From positions 14,000 through 45,999 of the forward strand of contig NZ_AUDJ01000029.1 of assembly GCF_000425405.1 (NCBI RefSeq): DNA of 32,000 nt, written 5' to 3'. Under the pieces are notes generated by a model. It was not told the origin of the DNA. It made no database searches and worked only from the letters and a program-made list of their open reading frames with translations. Shown here one piece after another: positions 9,052-21,943 of the stretch. How positions within the stretch are numbered: the stretch's first letter is position 1; each line of letters begins with the position of its first letter. Source of the stretch: Ferrimonas kyonanensis DSM 18153. GTDB taxonomy: Bacteria; Pseudomonadota; Gammaproteobacteria; Enterobacterales; Shewanellaceae. The position numbers were made by a program, and so were the translations under genes.

Positions 9052-10443
9052 TTACAGGAAATCTTTCATTGATGGGATCTGCTTAGCTTCCTCCATCATC
9101 TCAGCGCAAGCTGCTTCGACAATCTCCTTACAAAGCTCGACGTGGGCCCTTTCCGCTTTAGTAAGCCCCATCTCCTCAACTTCCTTCAGAGCATATGGCA
9201 GAGCCTGAGTGATACGGTTTATCACATCCAGAGTTAGAAGCTGCATGCGTTCAAGACTGATACCCAGCGTGTTGGCAAAATCTGCCAGTGCAAAAGCGGT
9301 CATTGGGTCTTCAAAGTTGCCGGGGGTGCCAGCCTCGTACTCGCCAATAGACATGGCGTAGAAGCGAGGTGTGCTCTGATCCCTGCCCTGAGCGGACAAT
9401 GCCTCGGCATCTTGTCGTGCCTCTGCCTCACGATACAGTGCCTCGATGTTCACTAGGTCGTAGAAAGGGGTGAGCTGTAACCCTCTTCTACCCACAAAGA
9501 AGCTTATGTTCTTGCCATGAGCGTCGAAGTTGCGGTTTAAGACGTTGAAGACCACCCACTGAACCAGTTGGCGGTGATAAGTCAGTTGGTCATTGGTTTG
9601 GACTGCGGCCAGCTTCGGCAAGGAAACGCCATCCCTGTACATCCTGGCGTCTGGCCCGTCGCCGTTCTGTCGCTCGTACTTATATGCTGATGGAAGATTA
9701 GTGGCCTGGCAGCCATCAATAACGTGGCGCCTGGATACTCGATTTTCATCCAGCAAGTATCTGCGGTCAAAGCGATCGACAATCAGGGTGCGAACCCCAC
9801 CAAATGTAGTAATTCGGGTAGTGGCCACCTGATCAAGGGTGCGTCGGGCCAATGCCATTGTGAAGGCCTCATTGACCACAATATTTGGCACTCTTCCTGA
9901 TTCGAACTTGTAGATGGTGTTGGAGCAGAGCTCGCCCTCACCAAGCCCGAACTGGTCACCTATCTCCAGGATGTTGAGCTTATCCTGAACACCGGCCACC
10001 GACAGGCGGGTGCGGCCGTCCCAGTAAGTAATGAGCCCTGCATTCTGAAGGCGTTGCCCCATCTCCTCATCGGTGATGACCCGAAAAGAGGACGCCTCCT
10101 GCTGAAATCCGGGAGCCGTGAAAGAGAGAGCGCCGGCGGTCTCGGTGCCAATACGACCTACCAGCGCAAACACGTTGGCTCGGGCAATAGTGGTGTTTTC
10201 CAGTAGCTCATCCAGCCCCTTACCTTCCGGTATCAGGTTCTCCAGGAAGTTGCGGACGTTGCGAGGAGGGATGTCCTCGTTGAAGGGCAGGTGCGGTGAT
10301 ACCGGGTAACCATTTTCGAGCCAAGCAGGGTCATAAGTAAACTCAAACTCGCTAACACTGCCAACAGGCAGCGCAAGGATCCCAACTAGGTCTTTCTGAG
10401 CTAGTCGAACCTCAAGCAGCTGGCGGTCAGGTCCAGTCATCAT
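9052..10443 (-). CDS. hipA: Type II toxin HipA-family serine/threonine kinase
   Basis: The N-terminal HipA motif is LSVAGVQDKL. The catalytic-loop motif is FDAHGKNISF (D-x-H-x-K-N). The protein is 463 aa, and its 5' end overlaps hipB by 17 nt. Confidence 0.9.
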   Translation of the reverse strand: MMTGPDRQLLEVRLAQKDLVGILALPVGSVSEFEFTYDPAWLENGYPVSPHLPFNEDIPPRNVRNFLENLIPEGKGLDELLENTTIARANVFALVGRIGTETAGALSFTAPGFQQEASSFRVITDEEMGQRLQNAGLITYWDGRTRLSVAGVQDKLNILEIGDQFGLGEGELCSNTIYKFESGRVPNIVVNEAFTMALARRTLDQVATTRITTFGGVRTLIVDRFDRRYLLDENRVSRRHVIDGCQATNLPSAYKYERQNGDGPDARMYRDGVSLPKLAAVQTNDQLTYHRQLVQWVVFNVLNRNFDAHGKNISFFVGRRGLQLTPFYDLVNIEALYREAEARQDAEALSAQGRDQSTPRFYAMSIGEYEAGTPGNFEDPMTAFALADFANTLGISLERMQLLTLDVINRITQALPYALKEVEEMGLTKAERAHVELCKEIVEAACAEMMEEAKQIPSMKDFL

Positions 10444-10744
10444 CTACCTCCGGGTGAACATGAAAGGGTGACAAGGAACTTGGCTCATCGGTCCTTATCT
10501 GGAATGACAGGCCCAGGTACTCCATAACCTTGAGGACGTTGTTAAGGTTGACGCCGATATCGCCTTTCTCGATCTTCACCAGGGTACTCTTTGACATGCC
10601 AAGAGTATCCGCGACATCCGCCTGGCGCAGGTTAAGCGTGGTGCGCTTGGAGGTAATCGCTTTTGCCAGCTGCAGTGGCGTGAATGGGAGCCGCAGATCG
10701 GGCATGGCCACTGGTTGGACAGATTTCCCTTTTCTCATGTTCAT
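10427..10744 (-). CDS. hipB: HipB-type XRE-family HTH antitoxin
   Basis: FTPLQLAKAITSKRTTLNLRQADVADTLGMSKSTLVKIEKG aligns with the E. coli HipB HTH. The acidic tail ends in DDDWT, and E. coli HipB also has a near-terminal Trp. The start is ambiguous: ATG 10744, 10738 or 10705, none with a good SD. Confidence 0.85.
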   Translation of the reverse strand: MNMRKGKSVQPVAMPDLRLPFTPLQLAKAITSKRTTLNLRQADVADTLGMSKSTLVKIEKGDIGVNLNNVLKVMEYLGLSFQIRTDEPSSLSPFHVHPEVDDDWT

Positions 10745-14438: not shown

Positions 14439-15458
14439 TTAAATATGTAGCTTTCTTAAAGCATCGCGCATCTTTTGCTCATCGCGCTTATCATATCGCT
14501 GGGTTGTGCGAAGATCAGAATGTCCCAACAAACGCTGCACAATCAAAATGTCGACGCCGGCATTGAGTAAATTAGTGGCAAAAGTTCGTCGCAAATCGTG
14601 AGGAGAGAACTTCTGTGTTCCAGCAATTGCTTGCAAGTGCTCAAGCGCGTTACGCACTCCAGAGACACCCAGAGGAAGCGATTTTGGGTGTACCTGATTA
14701 TTCCTGTTGGTCCGATAAAACAGCGGCCCAGGCTGATCCCCGCGTAGTGCAAGGTACTTATGCAACGCCGCTAGGGCCCGGGGGCTAAGCTCTAACACTC
14801 GTTCTTTGTTACCCTTTCCTAGGATCCGCATGGTGCGCTCGTACTTATTGAAGCTGGCCATGGACAGGCCTACGGATTCCTCCCTGCGCAGCCCCAGATC
14901 GGTCATTAGCAGCACCAGTGCGGCGTCGCGGGCTGCTCGGAATGGGGGAAATCTCGCTGCTTGCTCCACAAGTAACTCTATTTCTTGGGGTGTGAGTTCA
15001 CGGCCAGCAGGCGCACGAGTGCCTTTTACTGGCTTCACTTCTTTAATGAGCATGTAGGTATGAGCATCGATAAGTTGCAGTCTAAAGCAATGAGAAAGCA
15101 CCCCTTTAATAGCCGCCAGGTAAAGATTGCTGGTGTTTGGTGCTAAGCTTTGAAGCATGTTTGATTCTTCGACACTTTCTTTGGACTGTGTCATAGAGCT
15201 CAGGGTAAATAAATGGTTTTTGAACTTATTAATGGTCAGGTAGGTTAATTTATGCCATGGAAATGTGAAAGGATCATTCCAGTCGAAGCGTCGGGCAACG
15301 TTACTTAGGACATATTCCATGCGAGATTTAGAATTGGCAGAAGGCAAGTCATCCAAGTAGGCTGTGACAGCCACACGGGTTAATTCATTGGTGTGATCGA
15401 CACCGTTTAAAATAATTTCTGAGTTGGGTTGTGCTGCTAGTACCAATTCGTTGCTCAT
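14439..15458 (-). CDS. Tyrosine recombinase / phage-type integrase
   Basis: The full catalytic set is present: GLRREE (Arg), GKGNKER (Lys), HDLRRTFA (His-x-x-Arg), LLGHSDLRTTQRY (His and Tyr). The SD is aggaac. Confidence 0.9.
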   Translation of the reverse strand: MSNELVLAAQPNSEIILNGVDHTNELTRVAVTAYLDDLPSANSKSRMEYVLSNVARRFDWNDPFTFPWHKLTYLTINKFKNHLFTLSSMTQSKESVEESNMLQSLAPNTSNLYLAAIKGVLSHCFRLQLIDAHTYMLIKEVKPVKGTRAPAGRELTPQEIELLVEQAARFPPFRAARDAALVLLMTDLGLRREESVGLSMASFNKYERTMRILGKGNKERVLELSPRALAALHKYLALRGDQPGPLFYRTNRNNQVHPKSLPLGVSGVRNALEHLQAIAGTQKFSPHDLRRTFATNLLNAGVDILIVQRLLGHSDLRTTQRYDKRDEQKMRDALRKLHI

Positions 15459-17037: not shown

Positions 17038-17925
17038 ATGGACATTCGTAATCAACTGAAACAGACCTACCGCGACATCGAGGTCAGCCAGCGCCGGCTG
17101 GACTCGGCACTCGATGCCTGCCTGTATGTGCAGGCCAAAGCTTACGAGTTGCCGGCAATCGCCGAGGACGACAGCTTCAAGGCCATCAGCACGCTCGAGC
17201 CGAGTCTAATTGAAGGGTTCACTGCCGAGGCCAAGATCCGTCGTGCCTGGGCCCGCTATTACGTGGACAGCGGCAGCTCCACCCTCTGCTCGGTGAAGAT
17301 GCCTGGGGTCGTTCAATACCAGGCGGCGCCAGGTGAGCTGCAGCGGATCTTTGAGCTGGTAGATGACCTAAATAAGCGCAAGCGGAGGTTTGAAGAGATC
17401 TCCCAGCTGATCGACGATGAGTACGAGCGCCATGCCGCCATCCACGAGCTGTTCCCGCGGCTGCACAACAGGCAGCTGTGCCGGCAGCTGCATTGCGTCG
17501 GCGGCGATTTGGTACCAGACAGCATCGGCTTTAGCTTCAGCAATAAAGTGGTGGCGCACCAGGTGAGCGTTGACGCTACCCTCACCCGCCTGGAACAGAC
17601 GCTCGGCCATTCACTGCTGGCCGCCGCTGACGCCCAACTTGCACGCGCTCGAAGAGACAAGATCCTAGATCTGCAGCAGCAGTACGGCGATGATCTGGTC
17701 CTGGTACACCGCCGCTTCGGTAAGGTGCAGCCGATCTATAACCTGCGCTACGATCGCCAAGTTAGGCAGAAACCGGCCTCGATGCCGCTGCTCCTGCTGA
17801 CCACCACAACAGGCCCGGTGAAACTCAACAACCTGGCCAGCTACAGCATGCGAGTACCGGAGCTTACCGGTGGGGAGTTCCTGGATCCGACCAGTCCTAT
17901 ATATTGGCGAGCCGGCACAGATTAG
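17038..17925 (+). CDS. tus: DNA replication terminus site-binding protein (Tus) homologue
   Basis: Block-wise similarity runs along the whole length against E. coli Tus as I recall it. The blocks are VKMPGVVQYQ vs VRLPGVLCYQ, IHELFPRL vs VHRHLPGL, GFSFSNKVV vs RFGWANKHI, LTRLEQTL vs LAQLEKSL, and FGKVQPIYNLRY vs VKVQPIARVWY. The size is similar: 295 vs 309 aa. Confidence 0.7.
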   Translation: MDIRNQLKQTYRDIEVSQRRLDSALDACLYVQAKAYELPAIAEDDSFKAISTLEPSLIEGFTAEAKIRRAWARYYVDSGSSTLCSVKMPGVVQYQAAPGELQRIFELVDDLNKRKRRFEEISQLIDDEYERHAAIHELFPRLHNRQLCRQLHCVGGDLVPDSIGFSFSNKVVAHQVSVDATLTRLEQTLGHSLLAAADAQLARARRDKILDLQQQYGDDLVLVHRRFGKVQPIYNLRYDRQVRQKPASMPLLLLTTTTGPVKLNNLASYSMRVPELTGGEFLDPTSPIYWRAGTD

Positions 17926-18846: not shown

Positions 18847-19074
18847 ATGGGAACTGACAGACAGTACGCCCCAGGGGAAACGCCGGAAAGACGGGCCCTG
18901 TACGAAGCGGTCATTCAAGAGCTCAAAGCCAAGGGCACCTTCTCCTCGGCCGTGGAGTATGGCTGCGTAGGGGAGTGGATTGATGCTGTGTTTGAAAAGG
19001 ATATGTCCTTTAAGTGCCCGGACGAGCAAAATCACTGGGCCAAGCTGAGGTTCAACGGCGTGGAGCGGTGCTGA
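18847..19074 (+). CDS. Hypothetical protein (75 aa)
   Basis: The SD aaggaga lies 6 nt upstream of the start. Confidence 0.6.
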   Translation: MGTDRQYAPGETPERRALYEAVIQELKAKGTFSSAVEYGCVGEWIDAVFEKDMSFKCPDEQNHWAKLRFNGVERC

Positions 19075-19242
19075 CGCCGTTTGAACTGAACTCACGCACG
19101 ATAAGAAGCTGCCCTCCTGGATGTCATGATAAAAATTCAATATGGTCAATGTCCTACGCGGCATGGAGCCAATCGTTCATTTACCAGGGCGGAAGCAAAA
19201 CGTTATACCTAATGTAGGGATCAGTCACAAAAGGAGTTGTGC

Positions 19243-19488
19243 ATGATGGGGGATCAGAAGCAAACTGCGGAATATCTCAAGGGTATTCGGTTAAGAGCAA
19301 GGATTTCGCCAACGGAAATGGCGGAGAAGATTGGCGTTAGCCGCCGCCAGATTTACTACATCGAAGAGGGCGATGGTCAGATTACCGTCCCTCAAATGCA
19401 GCAATGGATCCATGCCTGCAAGCCATCAATGGCCAGCGTCATCAAGAACCTGTTCCCGCAGTTTCAAGCCAACCTCCATCGCTACTAG
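19243..19488 (+). CDS. Small XRE-type HTH protein, paralogue 1
   Basis: The SD is aaggag, followed by ATGATG. The HTH is MAEKIGVSRRQIYYIEEG. It is paralogous to the 21434-21697 gene. Confidence 0.75.
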   Translation: MMGDQKQTAEYLKGIRLRARISPTEMAEKIGVSRRQIYYIEEGDGQITVPQMQQWIHACKPSMASVIKNLFPQFQANLHRY

Positions 19489-19524
19489 ATCCATGCCGGC
19501 CACCTTTGCCGTCCGTTCTTTGCC

Positions 19525-19540
19525 GACCCCTCCTGGGGTC
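19525..19540. terminator. Hairpin between convergent genes (gacccc-tcct-ggggtc)
   Basis: A perfect 6-bp G/C stem between stop 19488 (+) and stop 19557 (-). There is no strong T-run. Confidence 0.4.
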
Positions 19541-19556
19541 GCTTGTATGCGAACCA

Positions 19557-20817
19557 CTATCGCACCGAAGGGATTTCTTCCCACCGGGTCAAGCTGCGCG
19601 GTGAATGCCGAGCACCATTGTCAGCAGAACGGTCACCCAGCTTTTGGGCTGCTATCTGCAGGCTATGGGTGCCGTACTTTGACTGAATGGCCTTGATGCC
19701 TGCCATCAGCTTGTCTGCCCCCTTACGCACCGGTGCATCAAACAAGCCCAGTTGACACTCATCGCGGTTACAAGGGTCAAGAGCGCCCACGGTGACCCGC
19801 CCAATAGGCACTCCGGGCCGGTAAGCCAACTCCACCGCCTTAGCCGCGGCGGTAGCCAGCTCCCTAATGTCGTCCGTTGGGTAAGCGAGCCGTAGCCGTT
19901 GACTGTGCCCCCAACGCACAGATCGGTCGAATGGGCTAGAGGAAAGCTGCAGTAGGTACTCACTGGCCACCAGGTCATGATCCCTGAGCTTTTTCGCCAC
20001 GGTAGACACCCTCTCCATCACTCCCGGCATCAAGGTCACCAGGGCAACCGGCTTCTCCTTCAATGAGCGAGAGCTCATGATTTGCTGGCGATTACTGACG
20101 TCCATGTCCGCCACCCGCATGCACTCCTTACCGTTCAACTCCAGATGCGTGCGTTCCAGGGTGACGCCGTGTAATCGCCTCAGGCTGAGCCGATCGTACT
20201 GAGCCAGGTCCCACGCAGTCCGAATACCTGCTGCCTCCAGCCTAGGCGCCAACCTCCGTCCCACACCCCAGACGTCGCCGACGCTGATGGTGGCCAGCAA
20301 CAGCCTGTCTGGGCGCTCCAGGATACATAGACCACGGTAGTCAGGGTGAGACTTGGCCAGCTCACTGGCCGCTTTGGCCAAGGTGATTGTGGGGGCGGCA
20401 CTGAATTTACAGCCCAGCCGCAGCTCGGTCCAGATCTGCTTCCGCACCGAGCGCCCCTCACCGATGAGGTCACCACGACTTGGCAGCTTGATCAGGCTTT
20501 CGTCCACAGAATACGGGGTAGCACAGGCGCCGTATCTCTGATTCAGAAGGTCATGAAAACGGTGGCTCATCTCGCTAAAGAGCTCGAAGGTTGAGCTTCT
20601 GCGGATCAGAGCATCGCGTTGGTGCTTGGGCAGCGCATCGGTTTGCTGCCAGAGCGGAACGAACTTTTTTAAGGCCCATGGCCTTCGCCTCAGGCGAAAT
20701 GGCCACCACAACGCCGTCATTGGAGCTGGTGACAATGACAGGTCTACCCCGCGTCGCAGGCTCCAGGCTTTGGATCATCGACGCATAGGCACTGGTCAGG
20801 TCGATTAGAGCCCACAT
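19557..20817 (-). pseudogene. umuC: umuC (Y-family DNA polymerase V catalytic subunit) interrupted by a frameshift in an A6 homopolymer
   Basis: The N-terminal MWALIDLTSAYASMIQ...PVIVTSSNDGVVVAISPEAKAMGLKK (frame of ORF 20575-20853) matches UmuC MFALCDVNAFYAS...PVVVLSNNDGCVIARNAEAKALGVK. The remainder, FVPLWQQ...SVDESLIKL...VWGVGRR, is in the frame of ORF 19557-20735. The switch occurs at TTTTTT 20665-20670 on the plus strand. The total span of 1261 nt equals 420 codons plus 1. Confidence 0.85.
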
Positions 20818-21194
20818 GAGGACGGGGACAGTTCGGGGATGGGGTGCCAGCATCGAATGGATCGGATGACGACCCCCTCAATGGCAAAGGCGGCTGGGCC
20901 ACATAGAGCCAGCCGCTCGGTTGCAGTGGCCAACTGGCCCGCTTCCACATCGAGAAAGCCTATTCGAAACTCGCCATCCACAGCACAAACGACCAGGTCA
21001 CCCGTTTTGGCTTCACGGCCGCGCTCCACGATCAGCAGATCGCCTTGATGGATGCCAACGGTTGAGAATTCATTGGTATCACAGCGCATGAACAGGCTAG
21101 CCGCCGGCTTATCAATCAGTAGGGAGTCAAGGCTGAGGACACCAACCTGCATGTCTTCGGCCTGGCTTGGCCAGCCCTGGATTGGATAACTCAT
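20805..21194 (-). CDS. umuD: UmuD-like protein lacking the N-terminal arm and the Ser/Lys catalytic dyad (UmuD'-like)
   Basis: IQGWPSQAED vs UmuD VQCGFPSPAAD, GDLLIV is identical, and AVDGEF is identical. Its 3' end overlaps the umuC start by 13 nt. I chose the start at ATG 21194 because the LexA box lies inside the longer listed ORF. Confidence 0.75.
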   Translation of the reverse strand: MSYPIQGWPSQAEDMQVGVLSLDSLLIDKPAASLFMRCDTNEFSTVGIHQGDLLIVERGREAKTGDLVVCAVDGEFRIGFLDVEAGQLATATERLALCGPAAFAIEGVVIRSIRCWHPIPELSPSSCGL

Positions 21195-21209
21195 GATCGA
21201 TCGACACCA

Positions 21210-21225
21210 CTGTTTATTTATACAG
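21210..21225 (-). promoter_or_regulatory. LexA (SOS) box CTGTTTATTTATACAG
   Basis: A perfect CTGT-N8-ACAG with an AT-rich spacer, 16 bp upstream of the umuD-like start. On the coding strand it embeds a TATAAA -10-like hexamer. Confidence 0.85.
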
Positions 21226-21333
21226 TGGCAGTGTAGCGCCGTCCCCAGCCTTTGTCGATTACCCAAGTACGTTATAGCCAGCTTTCATCGTGCATGGACC
21301 TGCACAGATGCTCATTCGATCCGTTACTGTGCC

Positions 21334-21351
21334 GTGATAGTTGTAACGCAC
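21334..21351 (+). promoter_or_regulatory. Candidate E. coli-type Ter core (gtgataGTTGTAACgcac)
   Basis: An exact GTTGTAAC octamer at 21340-21347, with a G at the position equivalent to G6. It matches 12/16 of the recalled consensus. Confidence 0.25.
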
Positions 21352-21433
21352 GGGTGAATGGGAGCCGTTTACTCTGTATAAAAATCCGGCTAACATTAAA
21401 TTTGCTACTGTAGTTACAAGGAGTGAAATACTC

Positions 21434-21697
21434 ATGGATGAGCCATTTAAGCCAAAGGGTGCAGATAGCAAGCAACTCAAACAAGCCCGGCAGGAAGCCA
21501 ATATGTCAGCGCAATGCATGGCCGATACGCTTGGCGTCTCAAGGAGAAAAGTCCACTACATCGAGTCTGGCCGATCGGATCTGACGATCAAGGAAGCTCA
21601 GACCTGGCTACATGCAACACGGGCTCCAGTCTTGGACTTTCTTCTGTCGCATTTTCCCGCGCTCCACCTGGAGCTTAAAAAACACCTCAAGTCATAA
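21434..21697 (+). CDS. Small XRE-type HTH protein, paralogue 2
   Basis: The SD is aaggag. MADTLGVSRRKVHYIESGRSDLTIKEAQTWLHA parallels MAEKIGVSRRQIYYIEEGDGQITVPQMQQWIHA in paralogue 1. Confidence 0.75.
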   Translation: MDEPFKPKGADSKQLKQARQEANMSAQCMADTLGVSRRKVHYIESGRSDLTIKEAQTWLHATRAPVLDFLLSHFPALHLELKKHLKS

Positions 21698-21709
21698 AGG
21701 AGTTACAAC

Positions 21710-21943
21710 ATGGACGTTACTTCAGTTAATAACACGCCTGCACGCAACACCGCGACCTCAGCCAACAAGGCCGAGGAGACACCCCCAGCCAAAGAGCCGG
21801 CGACCGCAACTCCGGCCACTGACACCGTTGAGCTGGGCTCCGGAGAAGCCGCGGTAAGCAGTGGGGTGAAGTCCCCCACAGATACCTACGCATCCATTCA
21901 GGCCGGTGGCGCCGGCGGCGGCGGCAAACCGCCTAAGAAATAA
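21710..21943 (+). CDS. Small low-complexity (T/P/A/G-rich) protein (77 aa)
   Basis: A strong SD, aaggag, lies 8 nt upstream. The composition looks disordered and ends in GGAGGGGKPPKK. Confidence 0.5.
   Translation: MDVTSVNNTPARNTATSANKAEETPPAKEPATATPATDTVELGSGEAAVSSGVKSPTDTYASIQAGGAGGGGKPPKK

What the first reader, a model, noticed from the sequence alone, without database searches (positions are those of the whole stretch)
20805..21225. LexA-controlled UmuD-like protein that starts at the cleavage site and has lost both catalytic residues
- **Anchoring the alignment.** I aligned on the invariant blocks GDLLIV and AVDGEF, which gives an offset of 18 residues from E. coli UmuD.
- **Missing N-terminal arm.** The protein starts only 5 residues before the equivalent of the Cys24-Gly25 self-cleavage site, which here is Gln6-Gly7.
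- **Missing nucleophile.** The Ser60 position (GDSM) is occupied by Glu42, in the context TNEF.
- **Missing general base.** The Lys97 position (TVKK) is Gly79, in the context RIGF.
- **What this means.** The product resembles a genetically pre-processed UmuD' that could neither need nor perform RecA*-stimulated autocleavage.
- **Regulation.** A perfect CTGT-N8-ACAG LexA box is retained 16 bp upstream.
- **Two readings.** If functional, this removes the post-translational SOS checkpoint on Pol V activation. Alternatively the operon is decaying, because umuC is also frameshifted.
Basis: partly seen in the sequence, partly recalled or inferred. Interest (0 to 1): 0.65.

Follow-up and report, generated by a model that had tools for sequence, protein, structure and literature searches.

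The report
Ready-made, protease-dead UmuD' with partner UmuC
This SOS-controlled operon encodes the small subunit of the error-prone DNA polymerase V already in its "cut" form, with the self-cutting machinery deleted. The same form is conserved in Ferrimonas marina and in a sister strain, so it looks like a working variant rather than a dying gene.

Summary
Window 20805-21194 (- strand) encodes a 129-aa S24/UmuD homologue. HMMER alignment to E. coli UmuD puts Gly7 at Gly25, Glu42 at the nucleophile Ser60 and Gly79 at the base Lys97. A CTGT-N8-ACAG LexA box lies 15 nt upstream of the ATG, just after a sigma-70-like promoter.

It is not a one-off wreck.
- Ferrimonas marina has a 125-aa relative (45-48% identity) with the same short N-terminus, the same Lys97-to-Gly change and no Ser60.
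- That relative has a LexA box at the same position and an intact, overlapping umuC.
- The two proteins keep the fold-defining residues. They differ from canonical UmuD almost only around the active site.
- Third codon positions are far more diverged than first and second positions.

The umuC frameshift here is one extra A in an A5 run. A 99.4%-identical contig from another sequencing run has A5 and an intact 419-aa UmuC.

Best reading: a genetically pre-activated pseudo-protease UmuD' serving its own, unusually divergent UmuC. The precedents are phage P1 HumD and phiKO2 gp23. I rate it a new variant of a known kind, of moderate interest.

The parts
21230..21258 (-). Sigma-70-like promoter candidate: -35 TCGACA (21258-21253), 17-nt spacer, -10 TACACT (21235-21230).
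   Evidence: Consensus scan, 9 of 12 matches. This is a consensus match only. Its position immediately upstream of the LexA box is what makes it credible.
21210..21225 (.). LexA (SOS) box: CTGTATAAATAAACAG on the - strand. It starts 4 nt after the -10 element and ends 15 nt before the ATG.
   Evidence: It is the only CTGT-N8-ACAG in the window. An equivalent box, CTGTATAAACGTACAG, lies 16 nt before the ATG of the F. marina orthologue. The box is unchanged in sister-strain contig L012.
20805..21194 (-). umuD'-like gene: 129 aa, S24 fold, no scissile Ala/Cys-Gly bond (Gln6-Gly7), Glu42 at the Ser60 position (21069-21071), Gly79 at the Lys97 position (20958-20960).
   Evidence: - Family and alignment.
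- AlphaFold2 model: mean pLDDT 82, core above 90.
- Best structural matches: E. coli UmuD' 1ay9 and 1umu, rmsd about 1.5 A, TM-score normalised to the target 0.84.
19557..20817 (-). umuC (Y-family polymerase). Its start overlaps the end of umuD' by 13 nt. In this sequence it is interrupted by a +1 frameshift.
   Evidence: - Pfam IMS, IMS_HHH, IMS_C and DUF4113 are found on the two fragments.
- The repaired product is 419 aa.
- It keeps Asp6, Tyr11, Asp101, Glu102 and a QLGLF clamp-type motif.
- The intact 419-aa version is P0410 on L012.
20665..20670 (-). A6 homopolymer (T6 on the + strand) that causes the umuC frameshift. A5 restores ...GLKKFVPLWQQ...
   Evidence: - One search shows the repair.
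- L012 lacks exactly one A here.
- F. marina UmuC reads GLRKFEPWFQQ at the same place.
20575..20817 (-). N-terminal 80-aa fragment of UmuC, as it would be translated from this sequence.
   Evidence: IMS domain positions 1-62. It is on record as a separate called gene from the 76,447-bp source contig.

Best explanation
**What it is.** This is a LexA-repressed umuD'C operon. Its small subunit is a pseudo-protease, encoded directly in the activated UmuD'-like form.

**How it probably works.**
1. When LexA is inactivated during the SOS response, the promoter fires.
2. The 129-aa protein and, by translational coupling through the 13-nt overlap, UmuC are made together.
3. The small protein adopts the UmuD' fold (shown by modelling).
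4. It dimerises and binds UmuC to form a Pol V-like complex (inferred from E. coli Pol V).
5. No RecA*-stimulated self-cleavage is needed or possible. The scissile segment, the Ser nucleophile and the Lys base are all gone (shown from sequence).
6. Activation by RecA-ATP transfer is presumably still required (inferred).

**Origin.** The ancestor was probably a short-armed Vibrio-type UmuD (MxxIPIxA(S/Q)AGI(T/V)GFESP). It lost the six residues carrying the scissile bond by an in-frame deletion, leaving MS-YPIQ-GWPSQ. The active site then drifted.

**The frameshift.** The umuC frameshift in this particular sequence is either a very recent one-base homopolymer insertion or a sequencing error.
For: **A conserved relative exists.**
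- In a HMMER scan of 1.84 billion cluster representatives, the only close relative is P0234 from Ferrimonas marina (125 aa, E 1e-20).
- It has the same short N-terminus (MSGYPVFGFPSP), Lys at the Ser60 column and the identical Lys97-to-Gly change in the same motif (GEFxxGFLD).
- Its locus has a LexA box 16 nt upstream and an intact 426-aa umuC overlapping by 4 nt.

**The pattern of change points to loss of catalysis only.**
- Among 43 columns conserved at 70% or more in 203 canonical UmuDs, both proteins are changed at only 7: Phe52, Gly58, Ser60, Met61, Asp75-to-Glu, Lys97-to-Gly and Ile119.
- The fold-defining residues are kept.
- Identity between the two proteins is enriched at conserved columns: 27 of 43 against 23 of 66 (Fisher p = 0.006).

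**Signs of purifying selection.**
- Nucleotide identity by codon position is 0.63 / 0.67 / 0.35 for umuD' and 0.47 / 0.56 / 0.36 for umuC.
- Sister-strain contig L012 is 99.4% identical, has A5 and an intact UmuC.
- The operon differs between the two strains by 5 synonymous and 3 non-synonymous changes (binomial p = 0.027 against a neutral 75% non-synonymous).

**The parts look functional.**
- UmuC keeps Asp6, Asp101 and Glu102, plus the C-terminal DUF4113 domain.
- The model of the small protein matches UmuD'.

**Precedents and independent cases.**
- P1 HumD (129 aa, starts MGFPSP, LexA site annotated, noted as complementing UmuD') and phiKO2 gp23 (Thr at the Ser60 column).
- An independent metagenomic lineage, P0285, has Ser-to-Ala and Lys-to-Arg changes with 8 residues before the Gly. 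It also sits directly upstream of a umuC.
Against: - umuC is frameshifted in the window itself. As written, this genome would make only an 80-aa UmuC fragment.
- Both UmuCs of the clade are highly aberrant. They violate 14 and 17 of 50 columns that are at least 90% conserved, against a canonical mean of 1.5 and a maximum of 8. The changes include Phe10-to-Ala and loss of Glu15 next to the active site. This could mean relaxed constraint.
- The clade is tiny: two 90%-identity clusters among 5.8 billion.
- dS is saturated, so dN/dS between the two species is only indicative.
- NJ pairing of the two UmuD' proteins has only about 50% bootstrap support.
- Six or seven residues remain in front of the Gly. 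In E. coli, a non-cleavable UmuD lacking residues 1-17 gives only low mutagenesis (PMC5342242).
- No functional data exist.
Confidence: 0.7

Rival explanations
1. The operon is a decaying relic. Loss of the arm, Ser and Lys, together with the umuC frameshift, are steps of pseudogenisation, and nothing functional is made.
For: - The frameshift in the window.
- UmuC violates 14 of 50 highly conserved columns.
- The nearest canonical homologues are only 35-43% identical, and both proteins sit on long branches.
- The gene lies in a mosaic island full of ORFans.
Against: - The same architecture is intact in F. marina, about 46% diverged, and in a 99.4%-identical strain.
- Both ORFs are free of stop codons despite saturated synonymous divergence.
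- Third codon positions are much more diverged than first and second positions.
- Changes are concentrated at the active site, not spread evenly.
- The LexA box is conserved in position.
- The UmuC catalytic triad and C-terminal domain are kept.
Confidence: 0.12
2. The small protein has been repurposed. It is a non-catalytic S24 scaffold that modulates RecA filaments, the replisome or the clamp (a 'polymerase manager' or SOS modulator role), rather than activating UmuC for translesion synthesis. On this view UmuC is dispensable, or is itself altered in function.
For: - Orphan short, catalytically dead UmuD'-like genes without umuC exist on mobile elements (P0400, P0261, P0264), and P1 humD has no umuC partner.
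- The retained N-terminal (S/G)YP(I/V)x aligns with the TFPLF part of the E. coli arm (column match at Pro16).
- The divergent UmuC active-site surroundings are compatible with a changed role.
Against: - Overlapping, co-oriented umuC is conserved in both species.
- UmuC and UmuD' of the two species co-cluster, with UmuC bootstrap support of 98/100, as expected for co-evolving partners.
- HumD, the orphan precedent, is annotated as functionally complementing UmuD'.
Confidence: 0.1
3. The umuC frameshift is not biological. It is a homopolymer miscall in the deposited assembly, and this strain has an intact operon like its sister.
For: - The difference is a single extra A in an A5 run, a classic error site.
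- The rest of umuC is undamaged: 7 substitutions in 1,260 nt against L012, of which 5 are synonymous.
Against: - The independent Logan assembly of run SRR896452 is identical to the window over 20709-21718 but stops 39 nt short of the run, so it gives no second opinion.
- Real A5-to-A6 slippage mutations are also common.
Confidence: 0.4

Closest known systems
Bacteriophage P1 HumD (and N15 gp26 / phiKO2 gp23)
   Same: - Encoded directly at about UmuD' size: HumD 129 aa, gp23 127 aa, window 129 aa.
- No cleavable arm.
- A LexA site lies upstream.
- phiKO2 gp23 has also lost the nucleophile (Thr at the Ser60 column).
- Sources. Function is per McLenigan et al. 1999, of which only the title was seen, and the GenBank note.
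   Different: - The phage proteins start exactly at Met-Gly (MGFPSP) and keep Lys97. HumD also keeps a Ser at the Ser60 column.
- They have no adjacent umuC and borrow the host's.
- Their C-termini differ (..VFGVITHVINDA..), so the window protein is not in that clade. It carries the Vibrio-type IEGVVIRSIRC tail.
- Here the gene is translationally coupled to its own divergent umuC.
Canonical short-armed UmuD of Vibrio / Moritella / Psychromonas / Shewanella and marine metagenomes (135-136 aa)
   Same: These are the closest sequence relatives, at 38-43% identity. They share LSLDSLLIDKPAA, GDLLIV, GEF and the IEGVVIRSIRC(H/W) tail, and are umuC-linked accessory subunits.
   Different: - All keep G(D/E/N/K)SM Ser and CK Lys, and carry the A(S/Q)AGI(T/V)G segment.
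- The window lacks those 6 residues.
- The window has TNEF and IGF instead of the Ser and Lys motifs.
E. coli UmuD / UmuD' (Pol V accessory subunit; PDB 1ay9, 1umu, 8gmt)
   Same: - Same fold: Foldseek TM-score 0.84 normalised to the target, rmsd 1.5 A.
- Same LexA control and the same umuD-umuC gene order.
   Different: - E. coli makes a 139-aa precursor that must be cut at Cys24-Gly25 by Ser60/Lys97 on RecA*.
- Here there is no site, no Ser and no Lys.
Engineered E. coli variants: UmuD' expressed directly, non-cleavable UmuD 3A (a 'UmuD' mimic'), UmuD 18 (deletion of residues 1-17)
   Same: They show that a non-cleavable protein with a short or loose arm can partly behave like UmuD' (PMC5342242). 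From my own knowledge, not checked here: Nohmi et al. 1988 reported that Ser60-to-Ala does not impair an engineered UmuD' in mutagenesis.
   Different: These are laboratory constructs. UmuD 18 supports only low mutagenesis with E. coli UmuC. Here the partner UmuC has co-diverged.
Ferrimonas marina S24 family peptidase / 'DNA polymerase V' (P0234; GCA_900129905.1, contig FQXG01000009.1)
   Same: The only true family member found. It has the same short N-terminus, Gly at the Lys97 column, no Ser60, the ERGR motif, the LexA box position and an overlapping umuC carrying the same derived Phe10-to-Ala, Asn73-to-Thr and Phe253-to-Leu changes.
   Different: - Only 45-48% identical (UmuC 36%).
- Lys rather than Glu at the Ser60 column.
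- Chromosomal housekeeping neighbourhood (purEK, LysR), versus an ORFan-rich island here.
- Annotated by its sources as an ordinary S24 peptidase / Pol V subunit, with nothing indicating that the loss has been noticed.

Membership tests
Peptidase S24 / LexA-UmuD superfamily (homology) | Significant match to the S24 profile and the S24 beta-fold | tested here: met
   PF00717 scores 31.1 bits against a cut-off of 23.3. phmmer to UmuD' structures gives E = 1e-11. The AF2 model has pLDDT 82, with best Foldseek hits 1ay9 and 1umu.
Autoproteolytic UmuD (functional S24 peptidase) | Ser nucleophile (E. coli Ser60, motif GDSM) | tested here: not met
   Glu42 in the context TNEF. F. marina has Lys at this column.
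Autoproteolytic UmuD (functional S24 peptidase) | Lys general base (E. coli Lys97) | tested here: not met
   Gly79 in the context RIGF. F. marina also has Gly.
Autoproteolytic UmuD (functional S24 peptidase) | N-terminal arm carrying an Ala-Gly or Cys-Gly scissile bond | tested here: not met
   Only MSYPIQ precedes Gly7, giving a Gln-Gly junction. The A(S/Q)AGI(T/V) segment of the nearest canonical relatives is absent. The upstream in-frame extension is implausible.
UmuD'-like Pol V accessory subunit encoded in pre-processed form (HumD-like functional class) | Gene product of UmuD' size that needs no cleavage and is under LexA control | tested here: met
   129 aa. LexA box at 21210-21225, conserved in position in F. 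marina. P1 HumD comparison.
UmuD'-like Pol V accessory subunit encoded in pre-processed form (HumD-like functional class) | Supports UmuC-dependent mutagenesis; forms a UmuD'2C complex | not testable with these tools
   Only indirect evidence: conserved overlap with umuC in three genomes, and co-clustering of both subunits.
UmuC (Pol V catalytic subunit, Y-family) | IMS + IMS_C + DUF4113 domain set and the catalytic Asp6 / Asp101 / Glu102 | tested here: met
   Domains. The catalytic residues are conserved in the alignment.
UmuC (Pol V catalytic subunit, Y-family) | Uninterrupted reading frame | tested here: not met
   A6 at 20665-20670 shifts the frame after codon 51. The frame is intact in sister contig L012 and in F. 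marina.
UmuC (Pol V catalytic subunit, Y-family) | Canonical motif I (D-x-N-x-F-Y-A-S-x-E) and other near-invariant residues | tested here: not met
   Phe10-to-Ala, Glu15-to-Ile, Asn73-to-Thr, Tyr77-to-Phe and others: 14 of 50 conserved columns are changed. Nine of these columns are also changed in F. marina.

The most novel reading that the evidence does not exclude
The Ferrimonas-type operon may be a naturally rewired Pol V. In this reading, the RecA*-dependent cleavage checkpoint has been deleted genetically. The retained N-terminal (S/G)YP(I/V)x peptide of the dead UmuD' has then co-evolved with an altered UmuC active-site entrance (Phe10-to-Ala next to the steric-gate Tyr11, loss of Glu15, Asn73-to-Thr). 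Published Pol V models place the UmuD' N-terminus at that site (PMC12926913). The result would be a mutasome with different timing, and possibly different fidelity or sugar selectivity. The tandem double-S24 proteins and the independent P0285-umuC operon would then show that bacteria have repeatedly re-engineered which part of UmuD carries the substrate and which carries the catalyst.
Probability: 0.25. Interest if true: 0.7.

Novelty: new variant of a known kind. Interest (0 to 1): 0.5.

Why it matters
In E. coli, slow RecA*-dependent cleavage of UmuD is the textbook post-translational delay. It keeps mutagenic Pol V as a last resort. Uncleaved UmuD also has checkpoint and proteolytic-targeting roles.

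A chromosomal, LexA-controlled operon that makes the activated form directly, and has discarded the protease, would show that this layer is dispensable in some bacteria.

It also gives a natural system for asking three things:
- What replaces the delay.
- What the residual N-terminal peptide does at the UmuC active site.
- How UmuC co-evolves with its small subunit.

There is a practical point too. Annotation pipelines currently label such proteins "autoproteolytic subunit" or "S24 family peptidase" (names). For this clade that label is wrong.

Tried and rejected
- **Upstream start giving a normal arm.** Rejected. The only in-frame start, TTG 21266, lies upstream of the predicted -35 element. 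It would read through the LexA box, and its 24 residues resemble no UmuD arm.
- **Alternative catalytic pair (Ser44 or another Lys).** Rejected. Ser44 is Lys in F. marina, and no Ser/Lys falls on the catalytic columns in any alignment. Lys63 is conserved between the two proteins, but I could not place it structurally.
- **Membership of the HumD clade.** Rejected, on the C-terminal motif and the alignment. The NJ tree groups the long-branched 'dead' proteins loosely, and I treat that grouping as unreliable.
- **Programmed frameshift at the A-run.** Considered. The needed shift is +1, not the dnaX-type -1, there is no slow codon after the run, and the sister strain simply has A5. A mutation or sequencing error is more economical.
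- **Identifying the source organism.** This failed.
  - The plasmid collection gave no match.
  - The genome-contig scan returned only distant Bacteroidales and Enterobacter hits.
  - Source names are withheld for the window's own proteins.
  - A Ferrimonas-like marine gammaproteobacterium is an inference from the nearest relative only.
- **Metagenome scan for more clade members.** It found only canonical Ser/Lys relatives.
- **Failed look-ups.** P0113 and P0279 were not on record. The HumD paper PMC94175 is not held. The first (frame error; query length; time-out) failed for technical reasons and were repeated.
Full report
**1. What is in the sequence**

- On the - strand, an ORF runs from ATG 21194 to the stop at 20805-20807 and encodes 129 aa.
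- It passes the Pfam Peptidase_S24 threshold: 31.1 bits against 23.3.
- phmmer against all PDB chains finds E. coli UmuD/UmuD' first (8gmt, 1umu, 1i4v, 1ay9; E = 1e-11 to 1e-9), then LexA.
- The alignment is gap-free over query 7-85 and UmuD 25-103.
  - Gln6-Gly7 lies on Cys24-Gly25.
  - Glu42 (TNEF) lies on Ser60 (GDSM).
  - Gly79 (RIGF) lies on Lys97 (TVKK).
- In a MAFFT alignment of 251 single-domain homologues, 214 carry Ser+Lys at those two columns. The window carries Glu+Gly.
- An AlphaFold2 model built on a 56-sequence alignment has mean pLDDT 82, above 90 through the core.
- Its best structural matches are UmuD' 1ay9 and 1umu: rmsd about 1.5 A, TM-score 0.84 normalised to the target. 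The fold is intact and only the chemistry is missing.

**2. Regulation and the start codon**

- The only CTGT-N8-ACAG in the window is at 21210-21225.
- One such match per 32 kb is not improbable by chance (0.63 expected), so the evidence lies in its position.
- It starts 4 nt after a promoter-like TCGACA-17-TACACT at 21258-21230 and ends 15 nt before the ATG.
- The only in-frame start further upstream, TTG 21266, lies before the -35 element. It would translate the operator itself into a sequence with no likeness to a UmuD arm.
- A longer, arm-bearing product is therefore unlikely.

**3. The N-terminus is better described as an internal deletion**

- The closest canonical relatives are UmuDs of Psychromonas, Moritella, Vibrio, Shewanella and marine metagenomes (38-43% identity, 135-136 aa).
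- Their arms are short: M-x-x-I-P-I-x-A-(S/Q)-A-G-I-(T/V)-G-F-E-S-P.
- The nearest metagenomic ones even share LSLDSLLIDKPAA with the window.
- Set against MLKFIPITAQAGIVGFESP, the window's MS-YPIQ-GWPSQ and F. marina's MSGYPVF-GFPSP look like the same arm with six residues removed. Those six (A-Q/S-A-G-I-V/T) contain the Ala-Gly bond.
- The large alignment independently places the window's Pro4 on the conserved Pro of the FPLF/IPI motif.
- This is an inference from alignment. It changes the picture from "a gene that begins at the cleavage site" to "a gene from which the cleavage site was excised".

**4. It is a conserved form, not a private accident**

*The F. marina relative*
- An index-free HMMER scan of 1.84 billion cluster representatives found one close relative, P0234 (125 aa, E = 1e-20).
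- A profile search identified it as a Ferrimonas marina protein that its sources call "S24 family peptidase" / "DNA polymerase V".
- It shares several features with the window:
  - the short N-terminus;
  - Gly at the Lys97 column, in the same GEFxxGFLD motif;
  - the derived ERGR after GDLL;
  - a Trp in the C-terminal tail.
- It has Lys where Ser60 should be.
- Its locus (L011) shows a LexA box, CTGTATAAACGTACAG, 16 nt before the ATG.
- It also shows an intact 426-aa umuC overlapping the stop by 4 nt, among ordinary chromosomal genes.

*Where the two proteins have changed*
- I took the 43 columns that are at least 70% conserved in 203 canonical UmuDs.
- The two proteins are both changed at only seven: Phe52, Gly58, Ser60, Met61, Asp75 (Glu in both), Lys97 (Gly in both) and Ile119.
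- They keep Gly25, Ser28, Ala30, Leu40, Leu44, Pro48, Gly65, Ile66, Gly69, Asp70, Leu71/72, Arg76, Gly92, Glu93, Phe94, Gly129 and Val130.
- Identity between them is enriched at conserved columns: 27 of 43 against 23 of 66 (p = 0.006).

*Codon-level evidence*

| Gene | Identity, codon position 1 | Position 2 | Position 3 |
|---|---|---|---|
| umuD' | 0.63 | 0.67 | 0.35 |
| umuC | 0.47 | 0.56 | 0.36 |

- Synonymous sites are saturated (pS about 0.72), while dN is 0.49 for umuD' and 0.77 for umuC.
- This is the signature of a pseudo-enzyme kept under selection for its scaffold.

**5. The partner polymerase**

- Removing one A from the A6 run at 20665-20670 yields a 419-aa UmuC with the IMS, IMS_HHH, IMS_C and DUF4113 domains.
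- It is very divergent. The best canonical homologues are 33-35% identical, and F. marina UmuC is 36% identical.
- In an alignment with 115 UmuCs it keeps Asp6, Tyr11, Asp101 and Glu102.
- It differs at 14 of 50 columns that are at least 90% conserved. F. marina differs at 17. The canonical mean is 1.5 and the maximum 8.
- Nine of those columns are changed in both proteins, three with the identical substitution: Phe10-to-Ala, Asn73-to-Thr and Phe253-to-Leu.
- The two UmuCs form an exclusive NJ pair in 98 of 100 bootstraps. The two UmuD' proteins pair in about half.
- Both subunits therefore appear to have diverged together from a common ancestor that already had the dead, arm-less small subunit.

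**6. The frameshift is not operon decay**

- Cluster look-up showed a 419-aa member (P0410) and a 129-aa UmuD' variant (P0412, Met15-to-Val) on a 2,732-bp Logan contig from run SRR33330815.
- That contig (L012) aligns to window 18923-21652 at 99.4% identity, with 16 substitutions and a single indel.
- The indel is one A fewer at window 20665, giving A5.
- F. marina reads GLRKFEPWFQQ where the repaired window reads GLKKFVPLWQQ, so A5 is the ancestral frame.
- Within the two genes the strains differ by 5 synonymous and 3 non-synonymous changes.
- The window's A6 is thus either a very recent slippage mutation or a homopolymer miscall.
- I could not decide between these. The independent assembly of SRR896452 (L001) is identical to the window but ends 39 nt before the run.

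**7. Mechanism proposed**

*Shown from sequence or modelling*
- A LexA box sits over a promoter.
- The two ORFs overlap.
- The UmuD' fold is retained.
- The scissile bond, Ser and Lys are absent.
- The UmuC catalytic triad and C-terminal domain are retained.

*Inferred from E. coli Pol V biology*
- SOS derepression yields the small subunit directly in its active form.
- It dimerises, binds the UmuC tail and inserts an N-terminal arm towards the UmuC active site, as in the published Pol V model summarised in PMC12926913.
- RecA-ATP is still needed to form the active mutasome.

*What is lost*
- The slow cleavage delay.
- The UmuD2C "checkpoint" state.
- ClpXP targeting through the full-length arm (roles summarised in PMC5342242).

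*A caution*
- A 6-residue stub remains. E. coli UmuD lacking residues 1-17, which has a 7-residue stub, is non-cleavable and only weakly mutagenic.
- Activity here probably depends on the co-diverged UmuC.

**8. Comparison with what is known**

- The idea of a genetically pre-processed UmuD' is not new.
  - P1 HumD (129 aa, MGFPSPAADY..., LexA site annotated) carries a GenBank note that it functionally complements UmuD'.
  - phiKO2 gp23 is similar and has Thr at the Ser60 column.
- What differs here:
  - loss of the whole Ser-Lys dyad;
  - a different origin (Vibrio-type tail, internal deletion);
  - residence in an operon with a cognate, co-diverged umuC.
- Among the homologues retrieved, other short proteins lacking Ser/Lys occur.
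  - One, P0285 (Ser-to-Ala, Lys-to-Arg), also sits directly upstream of a umuC in groundwater metagenomes.
  - Others are orphans next to a plasmid replicase, an IS110/BrxR region or an SRAP gene.
- Two surveys of bacterial Y-family polymerases and their partners that I searched describe UmuD only as the cleavable precursor in the passages retrieved (PMC6511836, PMC12926913).
- I did not find this variant described, but my literature search was limited.

**9. Verdict**

- The decay reading is disfavoured at about 0.12.
- It is a new variant of a known kind and of moderate interest.
- Its value is as a natural experiment on the Pol V cleavage checkpoint and on UmuD'-UmuC co-evolution.

Noticed in passing
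Not in the window: proteins P0233, P0235-P0250, P0257, P0259, P0278, P0280, P0283, P0302, P0315, P0336, P0342, P0347, P0352, P0360: About 30 cluster representatives are tandem double-S24 (UmuD-like) proteins of 235-280 aa. Domain 1 usually keeps the (A/C/T)-Gly cleavage-site arm but has lost Ser60 and/or Lys97, typically Lys-to-Arg. Domain 2 lacks the arm but keeps both catalytic residues. This looks like a single-chain UmuD dimer with substrate and catalyst on separate domains. I did not examine their genomic context or search the literature.
   Followed up: partly
L019 2501-2905 and 2895-4214 (also L020): An unrelated metagenomic lineage (P0285, 134 aa, only 8 residues before the Gly, Ser-to-Ala and Lys-to-Arg) also sits immediately upstream of, and overlapping, a 439-aa umuC in a chromosomal-looking context. 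Dead, arm-less UmuD' plus umuC has therefore arisen more than once.
   Followed up: partly
window 19243-19488 (+) and 21434-21697 (+): Two small, mutually similar XRE-type HTH proteins (81 and 87 aa, both with ...GVSRR..YYIE.G... and a similar C-terminal half) flank the umuD'C operon. One diverges from umuD' and the other converges on umuC. The same arrangement is present on L012. They could be local regulators (compare CroS control of rumAB in R391, PMC8460599), but this is untested.
   Followed up: no
window 17038-17925 (+): A 295-aa ORF matches the replication-terminus protein Tus only weakly (NCBIfam E = 1e-24, 87 bits, far below the 323-bit cut-off). It lies within an ORFan-rich stretch next to the operon.
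   Followed up: no
window 9052-10744 (-) and 14439-15458 (-): A HipA-like ORF (463 aa, HipA N-terminal domain) has an overlapping 105-aa upstream ORF, so this may be a toxin-antitoxin pair. A tyrosine recombinase/integrase lies next to a low-GC patch (39-43% at 12-15 kb, against 52% overall). Together with many ORFs that have no family match, this suggests the window is a mosaic genomic island.
   Followed up: no
L017 1733-2368 and 2501-2854: A 117-aa short UmuD'-like protein lacking Ser and Lys (P0264, GNAM / CR) lies divergently next to an SRAP (SOS-response-associated peptidase) gene with no umuC nearby. [quoted passage not shown]
   Followed up: no
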